Source: Escherichia coli (lineage in GTDB: Bacteria > Pseudomonadota > Gammaproteobacteria > Enterobacterales > Enterobacteriaceae). From it: a stretch of 64,000 nucleotides of DNA. Every line of letters starts with the position of its first letter. Position 1 is the first letter of the stretch. Location: the NCBI RefSeq assembly GCF_003334255.1, contig NZ_QOWU01000013.1; one strand, 5' to 3'. This document shows, in pieces, positions 140 to 7,340 of the stretch. A model generated the notes under the pieces. That model was given only the letters and a program-made list of their open reading frames with translations, searched no databases and had not been told where the DNA came from. Position numbers and translations under genes: made by a program.

Positions 140-1462
140 TTATTCGCTGATACGGCGATAGACAGTTGGTGTGCTTTCCGGTGCTTTATCGGCAAGTTTA
201 ATTGCCGCTTTCACCGCTTTCGCCGCTTCCTGCCAGTTGTTTTCGTCTTTCGCGTGGATAACCGCCAGCGGACGCTGACCGTCTACCTGGTCGCCCAGAC
301 GCGCCATATCAGTAAAGCCGACGCTGTAATCGATGGTGTCAGATGCCTGACGGCGTCCGCCGCCCATTGCAACCACTGCCATCCCCAGCGCGCGGGTATC
401 CATTTCACTGACAAAACCTTCGGTATCAGCATAGACTGCTTTCGTCAGCATCGCTGTCGGCAGATACTTCGCGTAGTTCTCAACGAAGTCGGTCGGGCCT
501 TTTTGTGCCGCTACCATACGACCAAAGACTTCTGCCGCTTTACCGTTGTCCAGCACCGCCTGCAATTTCGCGCGCGCTTCGGCGTCATCTTTCGCCAGTT
601 TGCCGGAGATCAGCATCTCCACGCACAGCGCCATCGTGACATCAAACAGACGCGGGTTACGATATTCACCCGTCAGGAACTGCACCGCTTCACGAACTTC
701 AACCGCGTTACCTGCACTGGAGGCCAGTACCTGATTCATGTCGGTGAGCAGCGCGGTGGTGCGCACGCCAGCGCCGTTAGCCACGCCAACAATCGCTTCG
801 GCAAGGGCTTCAGAGAGTTCGTAGGTCGGCATAAACGCGCCGCTACCCACTTTCACGTCCATCACCAGCGCGTCCAGACCTTCCGCAAGTTTCTTCGCCA
901 GAATAGAGGCGGTGATCAGCGGGATGGAGTCCACGGTTGCGGTAATATCACGGGTCGCGTAGAAACGTTTATCAGCCGGAGCCAGTGAACTGGTCTGACC
1001 GATAATCGCCACGCCGACGTCTTTAATAATTTCGCGGAAACGGTTGTCATCCGGGAAAATGTCGAAGCCAGGGATGGATTCCAGTTTGTCGAGCGTACCG
1101 CCAGTATGACCGAGGCCGCGACCAGAGATCATCGGAATATAGCCGCCGCAGGCTGCGACCATCGGCCCCAACATCAGCGAAGTCACATCGCCGACGCCAC
1201 CGGTGGAGTGTTTATCAACAATCGGGCCATTCAGATGCAGGCTTTTCCAGTCGAGAACGGTTCCTGAATCTCGCATCGCCATGGTCAGCGAGACACGCTC
1301 AGGCATTGTCATATCGTGGAAGAAAATGGTCATCGCGAGGGCGGCAATCTGCCCTTCGGAGATAGTGTTGTCGCGAATACCGTTGATAAAGAAACGAATT
1401 TCTTCATCGCTCAGCGCATGACCATCACGTTTTTTACGAATAATTTCTTGTGCGAGAAACAA
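140..1462 (-). CDS. deoA: Thymidine phosphorylase
   Basis: 440-aa ORF; start [29 protein letters not shown] and length match E. coli DeoA as recalled; operon context deoC-deoA-deoB. Confidence 0.95.
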
Positions 1463-1588: not shown

Positions 1589-2368
1589 TTAGTAGCTGCT
1601 GGCGCTCTTACCGTCGCCGTGACCCAGCGCTTTCAGCAGGCTTGCCAGCAGGCTGGAAGCGCCAAAGCGGTAGTGACGCGCATCTGCCCAGTCAGCACCG
1701 AACAGTTCATCTGCAATGGCGAGATATTTCTGCGCATCTTCCGCAGTACGCACGCCGCCCGCCGGTTTGAAACCAACGGTTTTTTCTACGCCCATATCAC
1801 GGATCACTTCCATCATGATGCGCGCGCTTTCCGGCGTCGCGTTCACAGCCACTTTACCGGTAGAGGTTTTGATGAAGTCCGCACCCGCTTTGATGGAGAT
1901 TTCAGACGCTTTACGGATCAGCGCTTCGTCTTTCAGTTCGCCGGTTTCGATGATCACTTTCAGCAGTACATTCGCTGCCGCGCAAGCCTCTTTACAGGCT
2001 TTCACCAGGTCAAAACCAACCTGCTCGTTACCCGCCATCAGCGCGCGGTACGGGAACACAACGTCAACTTCATCAGCACCGTAGGCGATTGCCGCACGGG
2101 TTTCTGCCAGCGCGATGTCGATGTCGTCGTTACCGTGTGGGAAGTTGGTTACCGTAGCGATACGGATTTCCGGGGTGCCCTGCTCTTTCAGAGTTTTGCG
2201 AGCAATCGGGATAAAGCGAGGATAGATACAGATAGCGGCGGTATTGCCGACCGGAGTTTTGGCCTGATGACACAGGGCGATCACTTTCTCGTCGGTGTCG
2301 TCGTCATTCAGGGTGGTCAGGTCCATCAATTTCAGTGCACGCAGGCTGCTTGCTTTCAGATCAGTCAT
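1589..2368 (-). CDS. deoC: Deoxyribose-phosphate aldolase
   Basis: ORF track 1589..2392; start trimmed to the internal ATG at 2368 ([20 protein letters not shown]), giving 259 aa; AGGAGAA ribosome-binding site upstream. Confidence 0.95.
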
Positions 2369-2412
2369 TTCATTCTCCTGGCTTGTCGCCAATAAAATTC
2401 ACCTTGCGAGTT

Positions 2413-2428
2413 TGTTAGTATTCTAACA
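2413..2428 (-). promoter_or_regulatory. DeoR operator O2 (overlaps deo P2 promoter)
   Basis: tgttagtattctaaca, a 16-bp palindrome close to the DeoR operator consensus TGTTAGAA-TTCTAACA; 45 bp upstream of the deoC start. Confidence 0.7.
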
Positions 2429-2442
2429 TCTACTCCGCAACA

Positions 2443-2464
2443 CACTTCGATACACATCACAATT
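2443..2464 (-). promoter_or_regulatory. CRP site (CytR/CRP-regulated deo P2 region)
   Basis: Minus strand reads AATTGTGATGTGTATCGAAGTG; TGTGA-N6-TCGAA resembles the CRP consensus TGTGA-N6-TCACA; position fits deo P2. Confidence 0.55.
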
Positions 2465-2625
2465 AAGGAAATCTACTTACAAGTTTGCATCACTGTAATG
2501 CGATCTGGTTCAAATAATTCACTTTCAAATGAATGCGTCAGTGGTGGCAAACGCATCAGGATCAAAGTGAACATCACGAAACTTCTTACAATGGCGCATC
2601 ACCTTCGGCATAAAAGGAAAAGAAG

Positions 2626-4176
2626 ATGCCCACTTCTCATGAAAATGCACTGCAACAACGTTGCCAGCAAATTGTCACCAGCCCAGTGCTTAGCCCGGAG
2701 CAGAAGCGCCATTTTCTGGCACTGGAAGCAGAAAACAATCTGCCTTACCCACAGCTTCCTGCCGAAGCCCGCCGCGCGCTGGATGAAGGTGTAATCTGCG
2801 ATATGTTTGAAGGTCATGCGCCGTACAAACCGCGCTATGTCTTACCCGATTACGCCCGTTTTCTGGCGAACGGTTCCGAATGGCTGGAGCTGGAAGGCGC
2901 GAAAGATCTTGATGACGCACTCTCTCTGCTGACCATTCTTTACCACCACGTACCGTCGGTCACATCGATGCCGGTCTACCTGGGGCAACTGGATGCGTTG
3001 TTGCAACCGTATGTTAGAATTCTAACACAAGACGAGATCGATGTTCGAATAAAACGTTTCTGGCGTTACCTCGACAGAACCCTGCCAGACGCCTTTATGC
3101 ACGCCAATATCGGCCCGTCTGATTCGCCCATTACCCGCGCGATCTTACGTGCAGATGCAGAGTTGAAGCAGGTTTCACCGAACCTGACCTTTATCTACGA
3201 TCCTGAAATCACCCCTGATGACCTGCTGCTGGAAGTGGCGAAGAACATCTGTGAATGTAGCAAACCGCACATCGCCAACGGTCCGGTGCATGATAAAATT
3301 TTCACAAAAGGGGGCTACGGGATTGTGAGCTGTTACAACTCACTGCCGCTGGCGGGTGGTGGCAGCACGCTGGTACGCCTTAACCTGAAAGCCATTGCCG
3401 AGCGCAGCGAATCGCTGGATGACTTCTTTACGCGCACTCTACCGCACTACTGCCAGCAGCAGATCGCCATCATCGATGCGCGGTGTGAATTCCTCTATCA
3501 ACAATCACACTTCTTTGAGAATAGCTTCCTGGTGAAAGAAGGGCTGATTAACCCTGAACGTTTTGTGCCAATGTTTGGCATGTATGGGCTGGCGGAAGCG
3601 GTTAACTTGCTGTGTGAAAAAGAAGGGATTGCCGCGCGCTACGGTAAAGAAGCCGCCGCAAATGAAGTAGGTTATCGCATCAGCGCGCAACTGGCGGAGT
3701 TTGTCGCCAATACCCCCGTGAAATATGGCTGGCAAAAACGCGCCATGTTACACGCACAGTCGGGGATCAGTTCCGATATCGGCACCACGCCGGGCGCGCG
3801 TTTGCCGTATGGCGATGAGCCAGATCCGATCACCCATCTGCAAACTGTCGCCCCGCATCATGCTTATTATTATTCCGGCATCAGCGACATTCTGACGCTC
3901 GACGAAACCATCAAACGTAACCCGCAGGCACTGGTACAGCTTTGCCTCGGTGCCTTTAAAGCCGGAATGCGTGAATTTACCGCCAATGTCAGCGGTAACG
4001 ATCTGGTTCGCGTTACCGGTTATATGGTGCGTTTGTCGGATTTAGAAAAATATCGCGCCGAAGGTTCACGCACCAACACCACCTGGCTGGGCGAAGAAGC
4101 CGCACGCAACACTCGTATTCTGGAACGCCAGCCGCGCGTGATAAGCCATGAACAGCAGATGCGCTTTAGTCAGTAA
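2626..4176 (+). CDS. yjjI: Glycyl-radical enzyme family protein, function unknown
   Basis: 516-aa ORF with a C-terminal glycyl-radical-like motif ([12 protein letters not shown]); AAGGAAAAG ribosome-binding site before the ATG; followed by the activase gene yjjW. Confidence 0.85.
3012..3027 (-). promoter_or_regulatory. DeoR operator O1 (deo P1 promoter), inside the yjjI coding sequence
   Basis: Perfect 16-bp palindrome tgttagaattctaaca exactly 599 bp from O2, the canonical O1-O2 spacing. Confidence 0.7.
3291..3306 (-). promoter_or_regulatory. Candidate DeoR upstream operator OE
   Basis: tgataaaattttcaca, a degenerate operator-like palindrome (about 12/16 match) 279 bp beyond O1, fitting the reported roughly 278-bp OE position. 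Confidence 0.4.
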
Positions 4177-5011
4177 GATTATCCCCTTCTCCTGCGTTGA
4201 CGGGCCAGGCAGTCGTCTGGCTCTGTTTTTGCAGGGCTGCAATCTGCGCTGCAAAAACTGTCACAATCCGTGGACGATGGGACGTTGCAATGACTGTGGG
4301 GAGTGCGTGCCACAGTGTCCGCATCAGGCGTTGCAGATTGTTGACGGCAAAGTGGTGTGGAACGCTGTGGTTTGCGAGCAGTGTGATACCTGCCTGAAGA
4401 GGTGTCCGCAACATGCCACGCCCATGGCGCAATCCATGAGCGTGGACGAAGTGCTTAGCCATGTCCGCAAAGCAGTGCTGTTTATCGAAGGGATAACGGT
4501 GAGTGGCGGTGAAGCCACGACCCAGCTGCCGTTTGTGGTGGCGCTGTTTACTGCTATCAAAAACGATCCGCAACTGCGCCATCTCACCTGTCTGGTGGAC
4601 AGTAACGGCATGTTGAGCGAAACCGGCTGGGAAAAATTGCTCCCGGTGTGCGACGGCGCAATGCTCGATCTCAAAGCGTGGGGGAGCGAATGTCATCAAC
4701 AACTCACCGGACGCGATAATCAGCAGATTAAGCGCAGCATCTATTTGCTGGCAGAGCGCGGCAAGCTGGCGGAACTGCGTTTGCTGGTGATCCCTGGCCA
4801 GGTGGATTATTTGCAACACATCGAAGAACTGGCGGCGTTTATCAAGGGACTCGGCGATGTTCCGGTACGCCTGAACGCGTTTCATGCCCACGGCGTGTAT
4901 GGCGAGGCGCAAAGCTGGGCGAGCGCCACGCCGGAAGACGTTGAGCCGTTGGCTGATGCGTTAAAGGTGCGCGGGGTGAGCCGGTTGATATTTCCGGCGC
5001 TCTATTTGTGA
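4148..5011 (+). CDS. yjjW: Glycyl-radical enzyme activating protein (radical SAM, with extra ferredoxin-like Cys clusters)
   Basis: 287 aa; radical SAM motif CNLRCKNC near the N-terminus plus [12 protein letters not shown] and [12 protein letters not shown] clusters; start overlaps the yjjI 3' end by 29 nt. Confidence 0.85.
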
Positions 5012-5012
5012 C

Positions 5013-5436
5013 ATGCCGGATACGGCCTACGGTTCGGCACAGACTTGTAGGCCTGATAAGACGCGTCAAGCGTCGCATCAGGCATTGTGCGCCAACTGCC
5101 GGATGCGGCGCGAACGCCTTATCCGGCCTACGGTTCGGCACAAACCTGTAGGCATGATAAGACGCGACAAGCGTCGCATCAGGCATTATGCGCCGACTGC
5201 CGGATGCGGCGTGAACGCCTTATCCGGCCTACGGTTCGGCACAGACTTGTAGGCATGATAAGACGCGACAAGCGTCGCATCAGGCATTGTGCGCCAACTG
5301 CCGGATGCGGCGTGAACGCCTTATCCGGCCTACGGTTCGGCACAAACCTGTAGGCATGATAAGACGCGTTAAGCGTCGCATCAGGCATTGTGCGCCAACT
5401 GCCGGATGCGGCGTGAACGCCTTATCCGGCCTACGG
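5013..5436. repeat. BIME/REP tandem array, about 101-bp unit x 4 plus a partial unit
   Basis: gccggatgcggcg recurs at 5098, 5199, 5300 and 5401 (period 101 bp); each unit holds two inverted REP copies; ORFs predicted here on both strands are repeat artefacts. Confidence 0.8.
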
Positions 5437-6210
5437 CACGTTAAACAACGTATACGTGTTATTAAGCAACGCTTGCGCAATCTCATCCGCCGGTTCCCGG
5501 CGCAACTCGCAAAGCACGGCAAACACACGGGCAGCCTGCTCCGGGCGGTTAGGCTGCCCCTGAAAACCGTTGAGCGGCATATCCGGCGCGTCGGTTTCCA
5601 GCAATAACGATGCCAGCGGTAATTTTGCGATGACATCGCGGGTTTTACTGGCGCGTGGATAGGTGATAGTACCGCCTACGCCAATTTTGTAGCCCAGCTG
5701 TACAAACCGTTCGGCCTGTTGCAGGCTGCCGGAAAAACCGTGAACCACGCCAGTGCGCGGTAAATCGTGGCGTTTAAGATGCATCGCCAGTTTGTCGTGC
5801 GTGCGCCGTGAATGCAGGATCACCGGCAGATCGTAGCGTTTCGCCAGTTTCAGTTGTTCGTCGAGTAACCACTGCTGCCTCTCAAATTGCGGATCGTCGC
5901 CAAAGAGATCCAGACCGATCTCCCCCACCGCCACCACCTTCGCCGGACGCCTTTCCAGCGCCTGCTGTAGCTGCTCAAGAGACACATCGCTATGTTTTTC
6001 CAACATACCAGGATGCAAGCCCAATGCGGCATACAGCGGTTGATAATTTTCCGCTAATGCCAACACACGGGCAAAATTTTCCGCCTCTGTTGCCGGAACA
6101 ATGATCTTGCCTACGCCCGCTTGTGCCGCGCGTTGCAGGCTGGCCTCTTCATCGCCACTAAACGGCGGGAAATCAAAATGGCAGTGGGTGTCGATAAAAC
6201 GGCAAATCAA
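5431..6210 (-). CDS. yjjV: TatD-family metal-dependent DNase
   Basis: 259 aa; N-terminus MICRFIDTHCHFDFPPF carries the TatD-type HxH metal-binding motif; K-12 synteny. Confidence 0.85.
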   Translation of the reverse strand: MICRFIDTHCHFDFPPFSGDEEASLQRAAQAGVGKIIVPATEAENFARVLALAENYQPLYAALGLHPGMLEKHSDVSLEQLQQALERRPAKVVAVGEIGLDLFGDDPQFERQQWLLDEQLKLAKRYDLPVILHSRRTHDKLAMHLKRHDLPRTGVVHGFSGSLQQAERFVQLGYKIGVGGTITYPRASKTRDVIAKLPLASLLLETDAPDMPLNGFQGQPNRPEQAARVFAVLCELRREPADEIAQALLNNTYTLFNVP

Positions 6211-7280
6211 GCCAGATCCTCATTGTTAAATGTCGGGTCGTTCGCCTGCGGAGCGTCGCTCACTTCGGCAACCAGCGTATCGTTGGCGACTGGCGCAGGC
6301 GGAATGACAATCGATTCCGGCGTCACCACTGGCACCAGATGGCGGGTAAGCGGCGCTTTTTCAGTTAATAGCTTGCCAACCGTGGCGAGGAAATAACGAC
6401 CGCATAAACGCCCAAGTTTATAGTCTTCACGCAGCGCCGGAATCCGACTGCCAAGCGCGATACTATGTAATGGCTTCGGCGGATAAATTTCGAATATCCG
6501 CAGCTTGCCCGGTGGTTTCTCAATAAATTGCTGAATGTCACGATAGCTGGTTTCATGATGCTGCACCAGATTGACCAGCGGCTGCAGGCTACTGTCACCC
6601 AGCCAGCGTTCCATGCGTTTGAACCACTGCGGCGTGTAGTACATTTGTGACGGCACAGTGCGAATGACGACCAACGTTTTAGCGCCCTGCCTTGCCGCCT
6701 CTTTAACCGGAATCGCATCACTGATCCCGCCATCCAGGTAGTTAATGCCTTCCAGCGACACTCCGCTACGATAAAAGCCAGGTATCGCACTGGAGGCGCG
6801 AATCACATCCAGCCAGTTTTGTTTGGTTGGTAAAAAGTAATTCGGCGCGTAGTCATCCTGACGACAGGCGCACATATAAAACGATTTGCCGCTGTCAAAC
6901 AACCGCGCGGCGGTATCCATTTGCAACGGCATCTGGCTTGCAGTGGCCTCCACCAGCCAGTCGAGATCGATAAGATTTCCTCCACGGACAAAGCGCAATG
7001 GATCGAAAAATTCGCGTTTTGTGGTATAGCGCATGATGACTTTGCGCGCGTAACCGGGCTGATTGCAGATAAACGCCGAGAGGTTCTGCGCCCCGGCAGA
7101 TGTGCCGAGATAAAGATCGAAAGGATTAAACTGCGCGCGCATAAACTCATCCAGCACGCCAGCCGTGAAAATTCCACGCTGTCCGCCGCCTTCGCACACC
7201 AGAGCTATTCGTCCAGGCTGGAACGGCCTTAGCGACAACGGCGCAATATTACCAAGCGTTACAGGTATTCGCTGCCCCAC
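6207..7280 (-). CDS. yjjU: Patatin-like phospholipase family protein
   Basis: ORF track 6207..7316; start set to the GTG at 7280 (MGQRIPVTL..., 357 aa) after an AGGAAGG ribosome-binding site; GGGQRG and GTSAG patatin motifs present. Confidence 0.8.
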   Translation of the reverse strand: MGQRIPVTLGNIAPLSLRPFQPGRIALVCEGGGQRGIFTAGVLDEFMRAQFNPFDLYLGTSAGAQNLSAFICNQPGYARKVIMRYTTKREFFDPLRFVRGGNLIDLDWLVEATASQMPLQMDTAARLFDSGKSFYMCACRQDDYAPNYFLPTKQNWLDVIRASSAIPGFYRSGVSLEGINYLDGGISDAIPVKEAARQGAKTLVVIRTVPSQMYYTPQWFKRMERWLGDSSLQPLVNLVQHHETSYRDIQQFIEKPPGKLRIFEIYPPKPLHSIALGSRIPALREDYKLGRLCGRYFLATVGKLLTEKAPLTRHLVPVVTPESIVIPPAPVANDTLVAEVSDAPQANDPTFNNEDLA

Positions 7281-7340
7281 CTCTGCCTTCCTGTTTTTGT
7301 TGTGAAAGAATGACAAAGTAACGCAATTTATTATTCGCTA

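What the first reader, a model, noticed from the sequence alone, without database searches (positions are those of the whole stretch)
2626..5011. Uncharacterised glycyl-radical enzyme / activase pair (yjjI-yjjW)
yjjI ends with a glycyl-radical-type motif (VRVTGY), and yjjW has the radical SAM CX3CX2C motif (CNLRCKNC) plus two further ferredoxin-like cysteine clusters; the two genes overlap by 29 nt, suggesting translational coupling. The substrate of this predicted radical enzyme is, to my knowledge, unknown. The pair sits beside the nucleoside-catabolic deo operon and is followed by a BIME array.
Basis: partly seen in the sequence, partly recalled or inferred. Interest (0 to 1): 0.45.

Follow-up and report, generated by a model that had tools for sequence, protein, structure and literature searches.

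The report
Orphan E. coli glycyl-radical enzyme pair yjjI-yjjW
This is the already-annotated but still function-less E. coli gene pair yjjI-yjjW, a stripped-down oxygen-sensitive radical enzyme and its activating partner, and comparison with many other microbes points to a role in breaking down nucleosides without oxygen.

Summary
The window is E. coli K-12. yjjI (2626-4176) and yjjW (4148-5011) overlap by 29 nt, carry the stated motifs and are followed by a 101-bp-period REP/BIME array.

The pair is already curated (TIGR04040/TIGR04041, PF11230), so it is not a discovery. I found no published function.

New here is the genomic context. Among 38 YjjI lineages with usable flanks, 11 carry nucleoside-catabolic enzymes and 18 carry these or a BMP-type ABC transporter. 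In several gut-metagenome contigs yjjI-yjjW sits inside a nucleoside uptake and catabolism operon. In E. coli the deo P1 operator lies inside the yjjI coding sequence.

YjjI has only one invariant Cys, no Cys pair and no Cys-x-Glu. My best reading is a redox-neutral radical step on the ribosyl or pentose-phosphate part of nucleosides. The pathway assignment is moderately supported; the chemistry is inferred.

The parts
2626..4176 (+). yjjI: 516-aa minimal glycyl radical enzyme (YjjI family)
3328..3339 (+). Cys-loop codons S235-C236-Y237-N238, with the putative thiyl-radical Cys236 at 3331-3333
   Evidence: C236 is the only invariant Cys. It sits at the tip of the beta-hairpin E231-234/E238-241 in the model. 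The profile alignment puts S235-C236 on PFL C418-C419.
4009..4023 (+). Glycyl-radical motif R462-V-T-G465-Y466 (G465 codon at 4018-4020)
   Evidence: R462 and G465 are conserved across the family. The motif aligns with PFL R731-V-S-G734-Y. It is the hairpin tip between E460-462 and E467-469.
4148..5011 (+). yjjW: radical-SAM glycyl-radical activating enzyme
   Evidence: TIGR04041 396 bits; Radical_SAM plus Fer4 dicluster; E 2e-19 to PflA structures; always adjacent to YjjI homologues.
4238..4261 (+). Radical-SAM cluster motif C31-X3-C35-X2-C38 of YjjW
   Evidence: Sequence; aligned with the PflA CX3CX2C.
4286..4405 (+). Two ferredoxin-like CX2CX2CX3C motifs of YjjW (C47/50/53/57 and C76/79/82/86), probably binding auxiliary 4Fe-4S clusters
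   Evidence: Sequence; Pfam Fer4_9/Fer4_7 at residues 46-90.
4148..4176 (+). 29-nt overlap of the yjjI 3' end with the yjjW 5' end (probable translational coupling)
   Evidence: The same 29-nt overlap appears in Citrobacter, Salmonella, Hafnia, Proteus, Providencia and Xenophilus loci. Distant homologues overlap by 4-14 nt or abut.
2369..2625 (.). Divergent deoC-yjjI control region: DeoR operator O2-like palindrome 2413-2428; tandem CRP sites 2446-2461 and 2499-2514
   Evidence: CRP ChIP-seq site TGTGATGTATATCGAA between yjjI and deoC (PMC4287617). FNR ChIP peak upstream of yjjI, assigned to the directly activated class (PMC3688515).
3012..3027 (.). Perfect DeoR-operator palindrome TGTTAGAATTCTAACA (deo P1/O1) embedded in yjjI codons 129-135
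   Evidence: Exactly 599 bp from the 2413 copy; chance expectation 0.19 per window. The two deo promoters are 599 bp apart (PMC3334521). The palindrome is conserved at +386 of yjjI in every genus where yjjI is divergent from deoC and absent where it is not.
5015..5436 (.). REP/BIME array downstream of yjjW: five in-register copies at 101-bp spacing (four full units plus a partial one), alternating REP orientations

Best explanation
yjjI-yjjW encode a genuine two-component glycyl radical system that is expressed anaerobically. YjjW uses its CX3CX2C [4Fe-4S] cluster and S-adenosylmethionine to abstract a hydrogen from Gly465 of YjjI. The glycyl radical is relayed to Cys236 on the neighbouring finger loop, and the thiyl radical abstracts a hydrogen from the substrate. 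These steps are inferred from family membership, not shown for this protein. Conserved gene neighbourhoods place the pair in anaerobic nucleoside utilisation. YjjI has a single invariant Cys. It lacks the PFL Cys pair, the Cys-x-Glu of the eliminases and the second Cys of NrdD, but it keeps the Arg that binds the substrate carboxylate in PFL. The most likely reaction is therefore a redox-neutral radical elimination or rearrangement on an anionic ribosyl-derived substrate. Candidates are ribose-5-phosphate, ribose-1-phosphate, a deoxyribose phosphate, or the sugar of an imported nucleoside. The chemistry would be RNR-like loss of a hydroxyl or phosphate next to the radical, without the reduction step. 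Confidence by tier: that it is a GRE-activase pair, about 0.9; that it works in nucleoside catabolism, about 0.6; the specific chemistry, about 0.15-0.2.
Against: No substrate, product or phenotype is known, so the pathway assignment rests only on gene neighbourhood. About half of the lineages show no nucleoside genes nearby; these include Proteus, Providencia, an archaeal context and the P0005 clade. Lineages were defined by crude single linkage at 65% identity. Genes were called as longest ORFs. The background rate is assumed, not measured. BMP-family transporters are not exclusively nucleoside-specific: NCBIfam's best, sub-threshold hits call some of them 'putative B6' transporters. In E. 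coli the deo adjacency is divergent, not co-directional. Transcription from deo P1 would be antisense to yjjI, which could mean antagonism rather than cooperation. The proposed chemistry is inference from which residues are absent. I could not inspect the model's coordinates to confirm that C236 and G465 are in contact or to define a pocket.
Confidence: 0.55

Rival explanations
1. YjjI is a real glycyl radical enzyme, but its substrate has nothing to do with nucleosides. It might be a small organic acid, or something linked to nitrate/nitrite respiration as proposed from co-expression. On this reading the nucleoside neighbours reflect shared anaerobic gut lifestyle or chance.
For: yjjI co-clusters in expression with narGHJI and shares FNR-type motifs in E. 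coli and Salmonella (PMC3228777). About half of the lineages have no nucleoside genes nearby. The Arg aligned with the carboxylate-binding R435 of PFL would also suit an organic acid.
Against: No nar, nir or nrf gene, and no other recurrent pathway, appears in any of the 51 lineages examined. The only recurrent neighbour families besides the activase are nucleoside enzymes, BMP transporters and regulators. Co-expression with nar genes is explained by common FNR control. Insertion of yjjI-yjjW between the genes of one transporter operon in contigs of 39-50% GC is hard to ascribe to chance.
Confidence: 0.25
2. YjjI is a cryptic second anaerobic ribonucleotide (or ribonucleoside / ribose-phosphate) reductase. 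It would carry out full RNR chemistry, including reduction, to make a 2-deoxy sugar that DeoC can then cleave.
Against: The NrdD active-site Cys175 (in F-N-C-M-L) falls in a gap of the YjjI family, and no second Cys is invariant. YjjI has no C-terminal four-Cys zinc site and no ATP cone (sequence). The activase is of the PflA/ferredoxin-insert type, not NrdG. Identity to NrdD is only 13-19%. E. coli already has nrdDG.
Confidence: 0.1
3. YjjI acts on the released nucleobase rather than on the sugar, for example in anaerobic breakdown of uracil, thymine or a purine.
For: Neighbours are rich in base-releasing enzymes: Udp, Pdp/DeoA, DeoD, RihC, Cdd and Add. From general knowledge, E. coli has no known oxygen-independent route for complete pyrimidine ring degradation.
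Against: No other base-catabolic genes (dihydropyrimidinase, ureidopropionase, xanthine dehydrogenase) recur nearby. The recurrent partners that act after base release are all sugar enzymes: RbsK, DeoB and DeoC. Conserved Arg, Lys, Asp, Asn and Tyr residues fit a sugar phosphate at least as well.
Confidence: 0.08
4. The pair is an evolutionary relic with no current function in E. coli.
For: No phenotype has been reported in the literature searched.
Against: dN/dS is 0.05-0.14. The pair is retained in 5423/5426 genomes. Catalytic residues are intact. Expression is regulated and anaerobic.
Confidence: 0.02

Closest known systems
[quoted passage not shown]
   Different: YjjI is 516 aa against 605-743 aa. 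It has no ATP cone and no C-terminal zinc-binding Cys cluster. The NrdD second active-site Cys175 is a gap in YjjI. hhalign does not put C236 exactly on NrdD C384; it is offset by 7 residues around a 19-residue loop-length difference. The activase is a PflA-like enzyme with a two-cluster ferredoxin insert, not NrdG. Identity is 13-19%.
Pyruvate formate-lyase PflB with PflA
   Different: The first Cys of the PFL pair is Ser in YjjI, so the PFL acyl-enzyme mechanism is not available. YjjI lacks about 240 residues of peripheral helices. YjjW carries auxiliary Fe-S motifs that PflA lacks.
GRE eliminases/dehydratases: E. coli PflD and YbiW, glycerol and propanediol dehydratases, CutC, HypD, IslA
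   Different: Those enzymes have a Glu two residues after the catalytic Cys (the Cys-x-Glu motif; this is from my own knowledge, not checked here). YjjI has Asn238 there, in a conserved S-C-Y-N motif. YjjI gets no Pfam PFL-like or Gly_radical hit at threshold and is about 250-300 residues shorter.

Membership tests
Glycyl radical enzyme superfamily | Ten-stranded alpha/beta barrel shared with RNRs | tested here: met
Glycyl radical enzyme superfamily | Conserved C-terminal R-V-x-G-[FWY] glycine loop | tested here: met
   R462-V-T-G465-Y466. R462 is invariant and G465 is invariant or more than 90% conserved. The motif aligns with PFL R731-G734. It deviates from the PROSITE-style pattern as I recall it (Leu and Thr at two positions); this deviation was not checked against PROSITE.
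Glycyl radical enzyme superfamily | Conserved catalytic Cys at the tip of the opposing finger loop | tested here: met
   C236 is the only invariant Cys. It is the hairpin tip in the model and aligns with PFL C419.
Glycyl radical enzyme superfamily | Dedicated radical-SAM activating enzyme encoded alongside | tested here: met
   YjjW scores 396 bits on TIGR04041 and has CX3CX2C. An activase is adjacent in 106 of 120 loci with a YjjI gene; most of the rest are truncated contigs or ORF-calling gaps.
Glycyl radical enzyme superfamily | Observable glycyl radical (EPR doublet) and oxygen-dependent chain cleavage at the Gly | not testable with these tools
   Needs anaerobic biochemistry.
YjjI family (TIGR04040 / PF11230) | Score above the curated cut-off over the full length | tested here: met
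   787 bits against a cutoff of 498, residues 11-504; PF11230 E 3e-220.
Class III ribonucleotide reductase (NrdD) | Second active-site Cys that delivers reducing equivalents (E. coli C175 / T4 C79; roles recalled from the literature) | tested here: not met
   NrdD F-N-C175-M-L aligns to a two-residue gap in YjjI. No other Cys is invariant; C58 is 81% conserved.
Class III ribonucleotide reductase (NrdD) | C-terminal four-Cys zinc site and, in many members, an N-terminal ATP cone | tested here: not met
   There is no Cys after residue 334 of YjjI, and its N-terminus is a short helical segment.
Pyruvate formate-lyase | Adjacent Cys-Cys pair on the Cys loop | tested here: not met
   S235-C236 is aligned to C418-C419. 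The Ser is conserved across the family.
GRE eliminases (diol dehydratases, CutC, HypD, IslA) | Cys-x-Glu general base on the Cys loop (feature recalled from the literature) | tested here: not met
   C236-Y237-N238; the Asn is more than 90% conserved.
Nucleoside catabolic regulon/operon (functional membership) | Conserved co-localisation and co-orientation with nucleoside uptake and catabolic genes across unrelated genomes | tested here: inconclusive
   Met in 11-18 of 38 lineages, including embedded operon forms, and absent in the rest. No expression or biochemical link has been tested.

The most novel reading that the evidence does not exclude
YjjI defines a previously unrecognised, oxygen-sensitive radical step in anaerobic nucleoside catabolism, conserved from E. 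coli to gut anaerobes. It would be a minimal RNR-like enzyme that carries out the first half of ribonucleotide-reductase chemistry, the radical elimination at the ribose, on a catabolic ribosyl or pentose-phosphate substrate and without reduction. That would open a new fermentative route for the sugar of nucleosides. One possibility is a 2-deoxy-3-keto pentose phosphate that can be split into a C2 and a C3 unit.
Probability: 0.2. Interest if true: 0.8.

Novelty: already known. Interest (0 to 1): 0.5.

Why it matters
YjjI appears to be one of the few remaining glycyl radical enzymes of E. coli K-12 without an assigned substrate; no function turned up in the literature searched here. It is also the most reduced GRE scaffold in the comparison set: 516 aa against 605-897 aa for the solved GRE/NrdD chains listed. 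It falls outside the Pfam PFL-like/Gly_radical definitions.

The neighbourhood evidence narrows 'substrate unknown' to a short list that can be bought and tested: nucleosides, ribose and deoxyribose and their phosphates, and bases. It also gives a defined genetic test, anaerobic growth and metabolomics of delta-yjjI on nucleosides.

If the link holds, textbook nucleoside catabolism (the deo, udp, cdd and rih genes) has a missing anaerobic branch that is widespread in gut bacteria. YjjI would also be a useful evolutionary intermediate between ribonucleotide reductases and the catabolic glycyl radical enzymes.

Tried and rejected
- Single-sequence phmmer of YjjI against PDB gave only noise. A family profile was needed.
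- The search for related loci with the 20-sequence alignment failed for lack of a conserved stretch.
- The one genome-contig scan returned only close relatives at 63% identity or more. It was useful for synteny within Enterobacterales but not for distant context.
- FNR site search: TTGAT-N4-ATCAA matches in the window are not above chance (50 found against 37 expected). The best intergenic candidate (2447-2460) is in fact the deoP2 CRP site seen by ChIP-seq. I do not claim an FNR site. The only weak candidate near the reported ChIP peak is 2500-2513, with 3 mismatches.
- The promoter/terminator scan found nothing above shuffled expectation.
- hhalign against a single NrdD sequence gives only 73% probability and does not register C236 on C384. 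I rely on the PFL alignment and the fold for the Cys assignment.
- Several recurrent unnamed neighbour clusters were annotated without useful result: M20 deacylase, LysR regulator, RlmH, MCP and several with no family.
- The large 'ABC_ATPase' neighbour cluster is a single-linkage mixture of BMP-type ATPases and MsbA-like exporters, so it was not counted as evidence.
- The nitrogen-metabolism proposal from co-expression was considered and rejected as the primary reading, because no nitrogen-respiration gene recurs near yjjI in any lineage.
- GrcA-like spare-part function was rejected because YjjI has a complete barrel.
Full report
**Identity of the region**

The window is Escherichia coli K-12. 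Bases 2400-5400 are 100% identical to MG1655 and are found at 80% coverage or more in 5423 of 5426 complete E. coli genomes. ORF listing and the RefSeq annotation agree on the layout:
- deoA 140-1462 (-)
- deoC 1589-2368 (-)
- yjjI 2626-4176 (+, 516 aa)
- yjjW 4148-5011 (+, 287 aa)
- a repeat array
- yjjV 5431-6210 (-)

The two genes overlap by 29 nt (4148-4176). YjjI contains L-V-R-V-T-G-Y, with G465 at nt 4018-4020. YjjW contains C31-X3-C35-X2-C38 and two CX2CX2CX3C motifs (C47-C57 and C76-C86). Downstream, five in-register copies at 101-bp spacing of alternating REP sequences run from 5015 to 5436.

**Is it a glycyl radical enzyme and activase?**

YjjI scores 787 bits on NCBIfam TIGR04040, 'YjjI family glycine radical enzyme' (cutoff 498), and E 3e-220 on Pfam PF11230. 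YjjW scores 396 bits on TIGR04041, 'YjjW family glycine radical enzyme activase' (cutoff 250). Its next-best hits are the activases of hydroxyproline dehydratase, sulfopropanediol dehydratase, PFL and CutC. YjjW matches solved PflA at E 2e-19.

A search of 1.84 billion cluster representatives found only 541 relatives, so this is a small family. An AlphaFold2 model built on 48 of them has mean pLDDT 93.9 and pTM 0.92.

Between 437 and 456 of the 516 residues align. At 516 aa, YjjI is shorter than every GRE/NrdD chain listed (605-897 aa). It is essentially the bare barrel.

**Catalytic residues**

In 20 full-length relatives at 29-57% identity the invariant positions include C236, R462 and G465. 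In a 94-sequence set C236 is the only Cys column above 81%. In the model, C236 and G465 each sit at the tip of a beta-hairpin, as the Cys and Gly loops of GREs do.

A profile of the family searched against PDB sequences hits PFL at E 7e-4 to 8e-4 and a Prevotella NrdD at 2e-3. The printed alignment, numbered along chain 1h16_A, pairs:
- YjjI S235-C236 with PFL C418-C419
- R251 with R435
- R462/G465 with R731/G734

The catalytic roles of those PFL residues are established knowledge (Becker and Kabsch structures), not something tested here.

hhalign against E. coli NrdD aligns 408 columns at 73% probability. It matches the strand after the Cys loop (V-R-L-N-L with I-S-L-N-L). It leaves NrdD C384 seven residues out of register, because the NrdD loop is 19 residues longer. 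It also places NrdD F-N-C175-M-L opposite a gap in YjjI.

YjjI nonetheless has none of the subclass signatures:
- no Cys-Cys pair (PFL)
- no Cys-x-Glu (eliminases; feature recalled from the literature), because it has a conserved S-C-Y-N instead
- no second reducing Cys, zinc site or ATP cone (NrdD)

**Is it functional and expressed?**

dN/dS against Citrobacter, Salmonella and Phytobacter is 0.05-0.06 for yjjI and 0.08-0.14 for yjjW. FNR ChIP places a peak upstream of yjjI and classes it as directly activated (PMC3688515). Both genes are listed as FNR-activated in another transcriptome study (PMC2634741). In Yersinia intermedia, yjjI and yjjW rise 4.3- and 2.1-fold anaerobically (PMC3792023). 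I could not identify a convincing FNR site. The best match in the intergenic region is the deoP2 CRP site.

**Is a function published?**

Full-text searches for yjjI, yjjW, DUF3029, HI0521 and the family accessions, and for glycyl radical enzymes together with nucleoside or pentose terms, found no assigned function. The only proposal is a co-expression-based guess at nitrogen metabolism (PMC3228777). NCBIfam release 20 (June 2026) still types both models as hypothetical equivalogs. Subscription-only literature is not covered, so a recent paper could have been missed.

**Genomic context**

The activase is the universal partner: 106 of 120 loci, with the exceptions being mostly truncated contigs or ORF-calling gaps.

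Within Enterobacteriaceae and Hafnia, yjjI is always divergent from deoC-deoA. In Proteus, Providencia, Xenophilus and Aliivibrio it is not. In Gilliamella it follows cpdB, cdd, a pyrimidine-nucleoside phosphorylase and ushA on the same strand.

Look-ups of distant representatives gave three further cases:
- L092: rihC-like hydrolase, ADP-ribosylglycohydrolase-family gene, ribokinase-like kinase, deoD-type phosphorylase, sulfatase-family gene, yjjI, yjjW, MFS, BMP-family ABC transporter, all on one strand with gaps of -14 to 183 nt
- L094: nucleoside hydrolase, kinase, activase, yjjI
- L090: hydrolase and BMP permeases convergent downstream

I then scanned metagenome contigs with a degenerate DNA pattern for [IV]-R-[IV]-T-G-Y-L-V-[KR]-[KR]-x-[DE]. 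This pattern excludes the enterobacterial version of the motif. Of 120 returned stretches, 118 encode YjjI homologues.

I called longest ORFs within 7 kb, clustered them by all-against-all BLASTP, and grouped loci into lineages by 65% or more YjjI identity. The recurrent neighbour families, named with NCBIfam, were:
- BMP-family substrate-binding protein: 19 loci, 9 lineages, typically immediately upstream
- BMP permeases: 26 loci, 9 lineages
- RihC-type ribonucleoside hydrolase: 10 loci, 7 lineages
- ribokinase above its curated cutoff: 8 loci, 6 lineages
- uridine/purine nucleoside phosphorylase: 8 loci, 3 lineages
- DeoC: 7 loci, 3 lineages
- DeoB: 6 loci
- a LacI-type regulator
- nucleotidases, Cdd and Add

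Of 38 lineages with at least three neighbour ORFs, 11 have a nucleoside-catabolic enzyme and 18 have that or a BMP transporter component. With an assumed background of 8% per neighbourhood the binomial p is about 1e-4. The background is my estimate, not a measurement.

The most telling arrangements are L123, L101 and L141. These are contigs of 39-50% GC, so they come from different organisms. Their order is (nucleotidase, udp) BMP-binding protein, yjjI, yjjW, ABC ATPase, two permeases, (PNP) deoC, cdd or add, deoB, with intergenic gaps of -20 to 100 nt except one 265-nt gap caused by a truncated activase ORF call. Here the radical pair is embedded inside a nucleoside uptake and catabolism operon.

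About half of the lineages show no such link. These include an archaeal context with eIF1A and NMD3 genes and a clade next to a LuxR-type regulator.

**Mechanistic reading**

Inferred from family membership, not shown for this protein: YjjW reductively cleaves SAM at its CX3CX2C cluster, with the two ferredoxin-like clusters probably relaying electrons. The 5'-deoxyadenosyl radical generates the G465 radical. G465 oxidises C236, and the thiyl radical abstracts a substrate hydrogen.

Inferred from context: the substrate belongs to nucleoside catabolism.

Inferred from residue pattern: only one Cys is conserved, so a disulfide- or thiosulfuranyl-based reduction as in NrdD is unlikely, and a redox-neutral elimination or rearrangement is favoured. 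R251 aligns with the carboxylate-binding R435 of PFL. Several other invariant Arg, Lys, His, Asp, Asn and Tyr residues (R70, Y71, Y76, H159, N186, K213, N218, E305, H376, Q378, D384, R392) fit an anionic polyol such as a pentose phosphate.

The sugar-side enzymes are the common denominator of the neighbourhoods. RbsK, DeoB and DeoC act downstream of both the hydrolase and the phosphorylase routes. I therefore favour a ribose- or deoxyribose-phosphate or the ribosyl group of an imported nucleoside, undergoing RNR-like loss of a vicinal hydroxyl (or phosphate) without reduction. One chemically sensible outcome is a 2-deoxy-3-keto pentose phosphate that could be split into acetaldehyde plus a C3 acid phosphate. 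This is speculation, offered only to make the hypothesis testable.

**Relation to the deo operon in E. coli**

The 16-bp palindrome TGTTAGAATTCTAACA occurs perfectly at 3012-3027, inside yjjI codons 129-135, and with one mismatch at 2413-2428. The two copies are exactly 599 bp apart, against 0.19 matches expected by chance. The two DeoR-controlled deo promoters are reported to be 599 bp apart (PMC3334521). From my own knowledge these are operators O1 and O2, and the TAGAAT inside the palindrome is the P1 -10 element.

The intragenic copy is conserved at +386 of yjjI in every genus where yjjI faces deoC, from Escherichia to Hafnia at 79% protein identity. It is absent where yjjI lies elsewhere. 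It falls in a segment of YjjI that is variable across the family. CRP ChIP-seq also reports one site between the genes and one inside yjjI (PMC4287617; sites located).

So the deo control region and the 5' third of yjjI are physically interwoven, and P1 transcripts would be antisense to the yjjI start. Whether this couples or opposes their expression is unknown.

**Verdict**

The finding is real and correctly interpreted, but it is an already curated gene pair, so its novelty class is 'already known'. Its interest lies in the open question of substrate. What this analysis adds:
- a structure-based placement as a minimal GRE closest to NrdD
- an active-site signature (S-C-Y-N, single Cys) that excludes the known subclasses
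- a reproducible association with nucleoside catabolism that turns 'unknown' into a short, testable list

Noticed in passing
window 3012-3027 and 2413-2428 (possible third site at about 3291-3306): DeoR-operator palindromes lie exactly 599 bp apart, and the perfect copy is inside the yjjI coding sequence (codons 129-135). It is conserved at the same codon position in every genus with the deoC-yjjI arrangement and absent in Proteus and Providencia. deo P1 transcripts would be antisense to the first ~390 nt of yjjI.
   Followed up: partly
window 2446-2461, 2499-2514 and 2949-2964: Tandem CRP-type sites 53 bp apart sit in the deoC-yjjI intergenic region, and a third CRP-like site lies inside yjjI. 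They match published CRP ChIP-seq sites. The first is also the best FNR-consensus match, so FNR and CRP may compete here.
   Followed up: partly
window 5015-5436: The REP/BIME array has five in-register copies at 101-bp spacing (four full units plus a partial one), with alternating GCCGGATGCGGCG-type and GCCTGATGCGACGC-type elements. It fills the whole convergent gap between yjjW and yjjV.
   Followed up: yes
window 4202-4233: A terminator-like hairpin plus T-run (GGGCCAGGCAGTCGTCTGGCTC TGTTTTTGCA) lies just after the yjjI stop, inside the first 30 codons of yjjW. The count of such sites in the region is not above shuffled expectation.
   Followed up: no
L092 3806-5338; L176 4111-5433: A sulfatase/phosphoesterase-family gene (alkaline-phosphatase superfamily) lies next to yjjI on the same strand in two unrelated metagenomic lineages: immediately upstream in L092 and downstream in L176. 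This hints that the physiological substrate might carry a sulfate or phosphate ester.
   Followed up: partly
L087-L089: A 42%-identical YjjI homologue with its activase sits in a clearly archaeal neighbourhood (eIF-1A, NMD3, RIO1, eIF-2 beta, TusA/sulfur-transport genes), so the family is not confined to bacteria.
   Followed up: no
window 6207-6210 and 5431-7316: In the raw ORF listing, yjjU (patatin-like phospholipase) and yjjV (TatD-family metal-dependent hydrolase) overlap by 4 nt and form a convergent pair with yjjI-yjjW. This yjjV-yjjU-osmY-prfC block travels with yjjI-yjjW throughout Enterobacteriaceae.
   Followed up: partly
YjjI residue 58 (window 2797-2799): A second Cys (C58, in the motif I-C-D-x-x-E-G-x-A-P-Y) is present in about 81% of family members but replaced by His, Asp or Tyr in others. 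It is not essential for the family but could be a lineage-specific redox or metal ligand.
   Followed up: no
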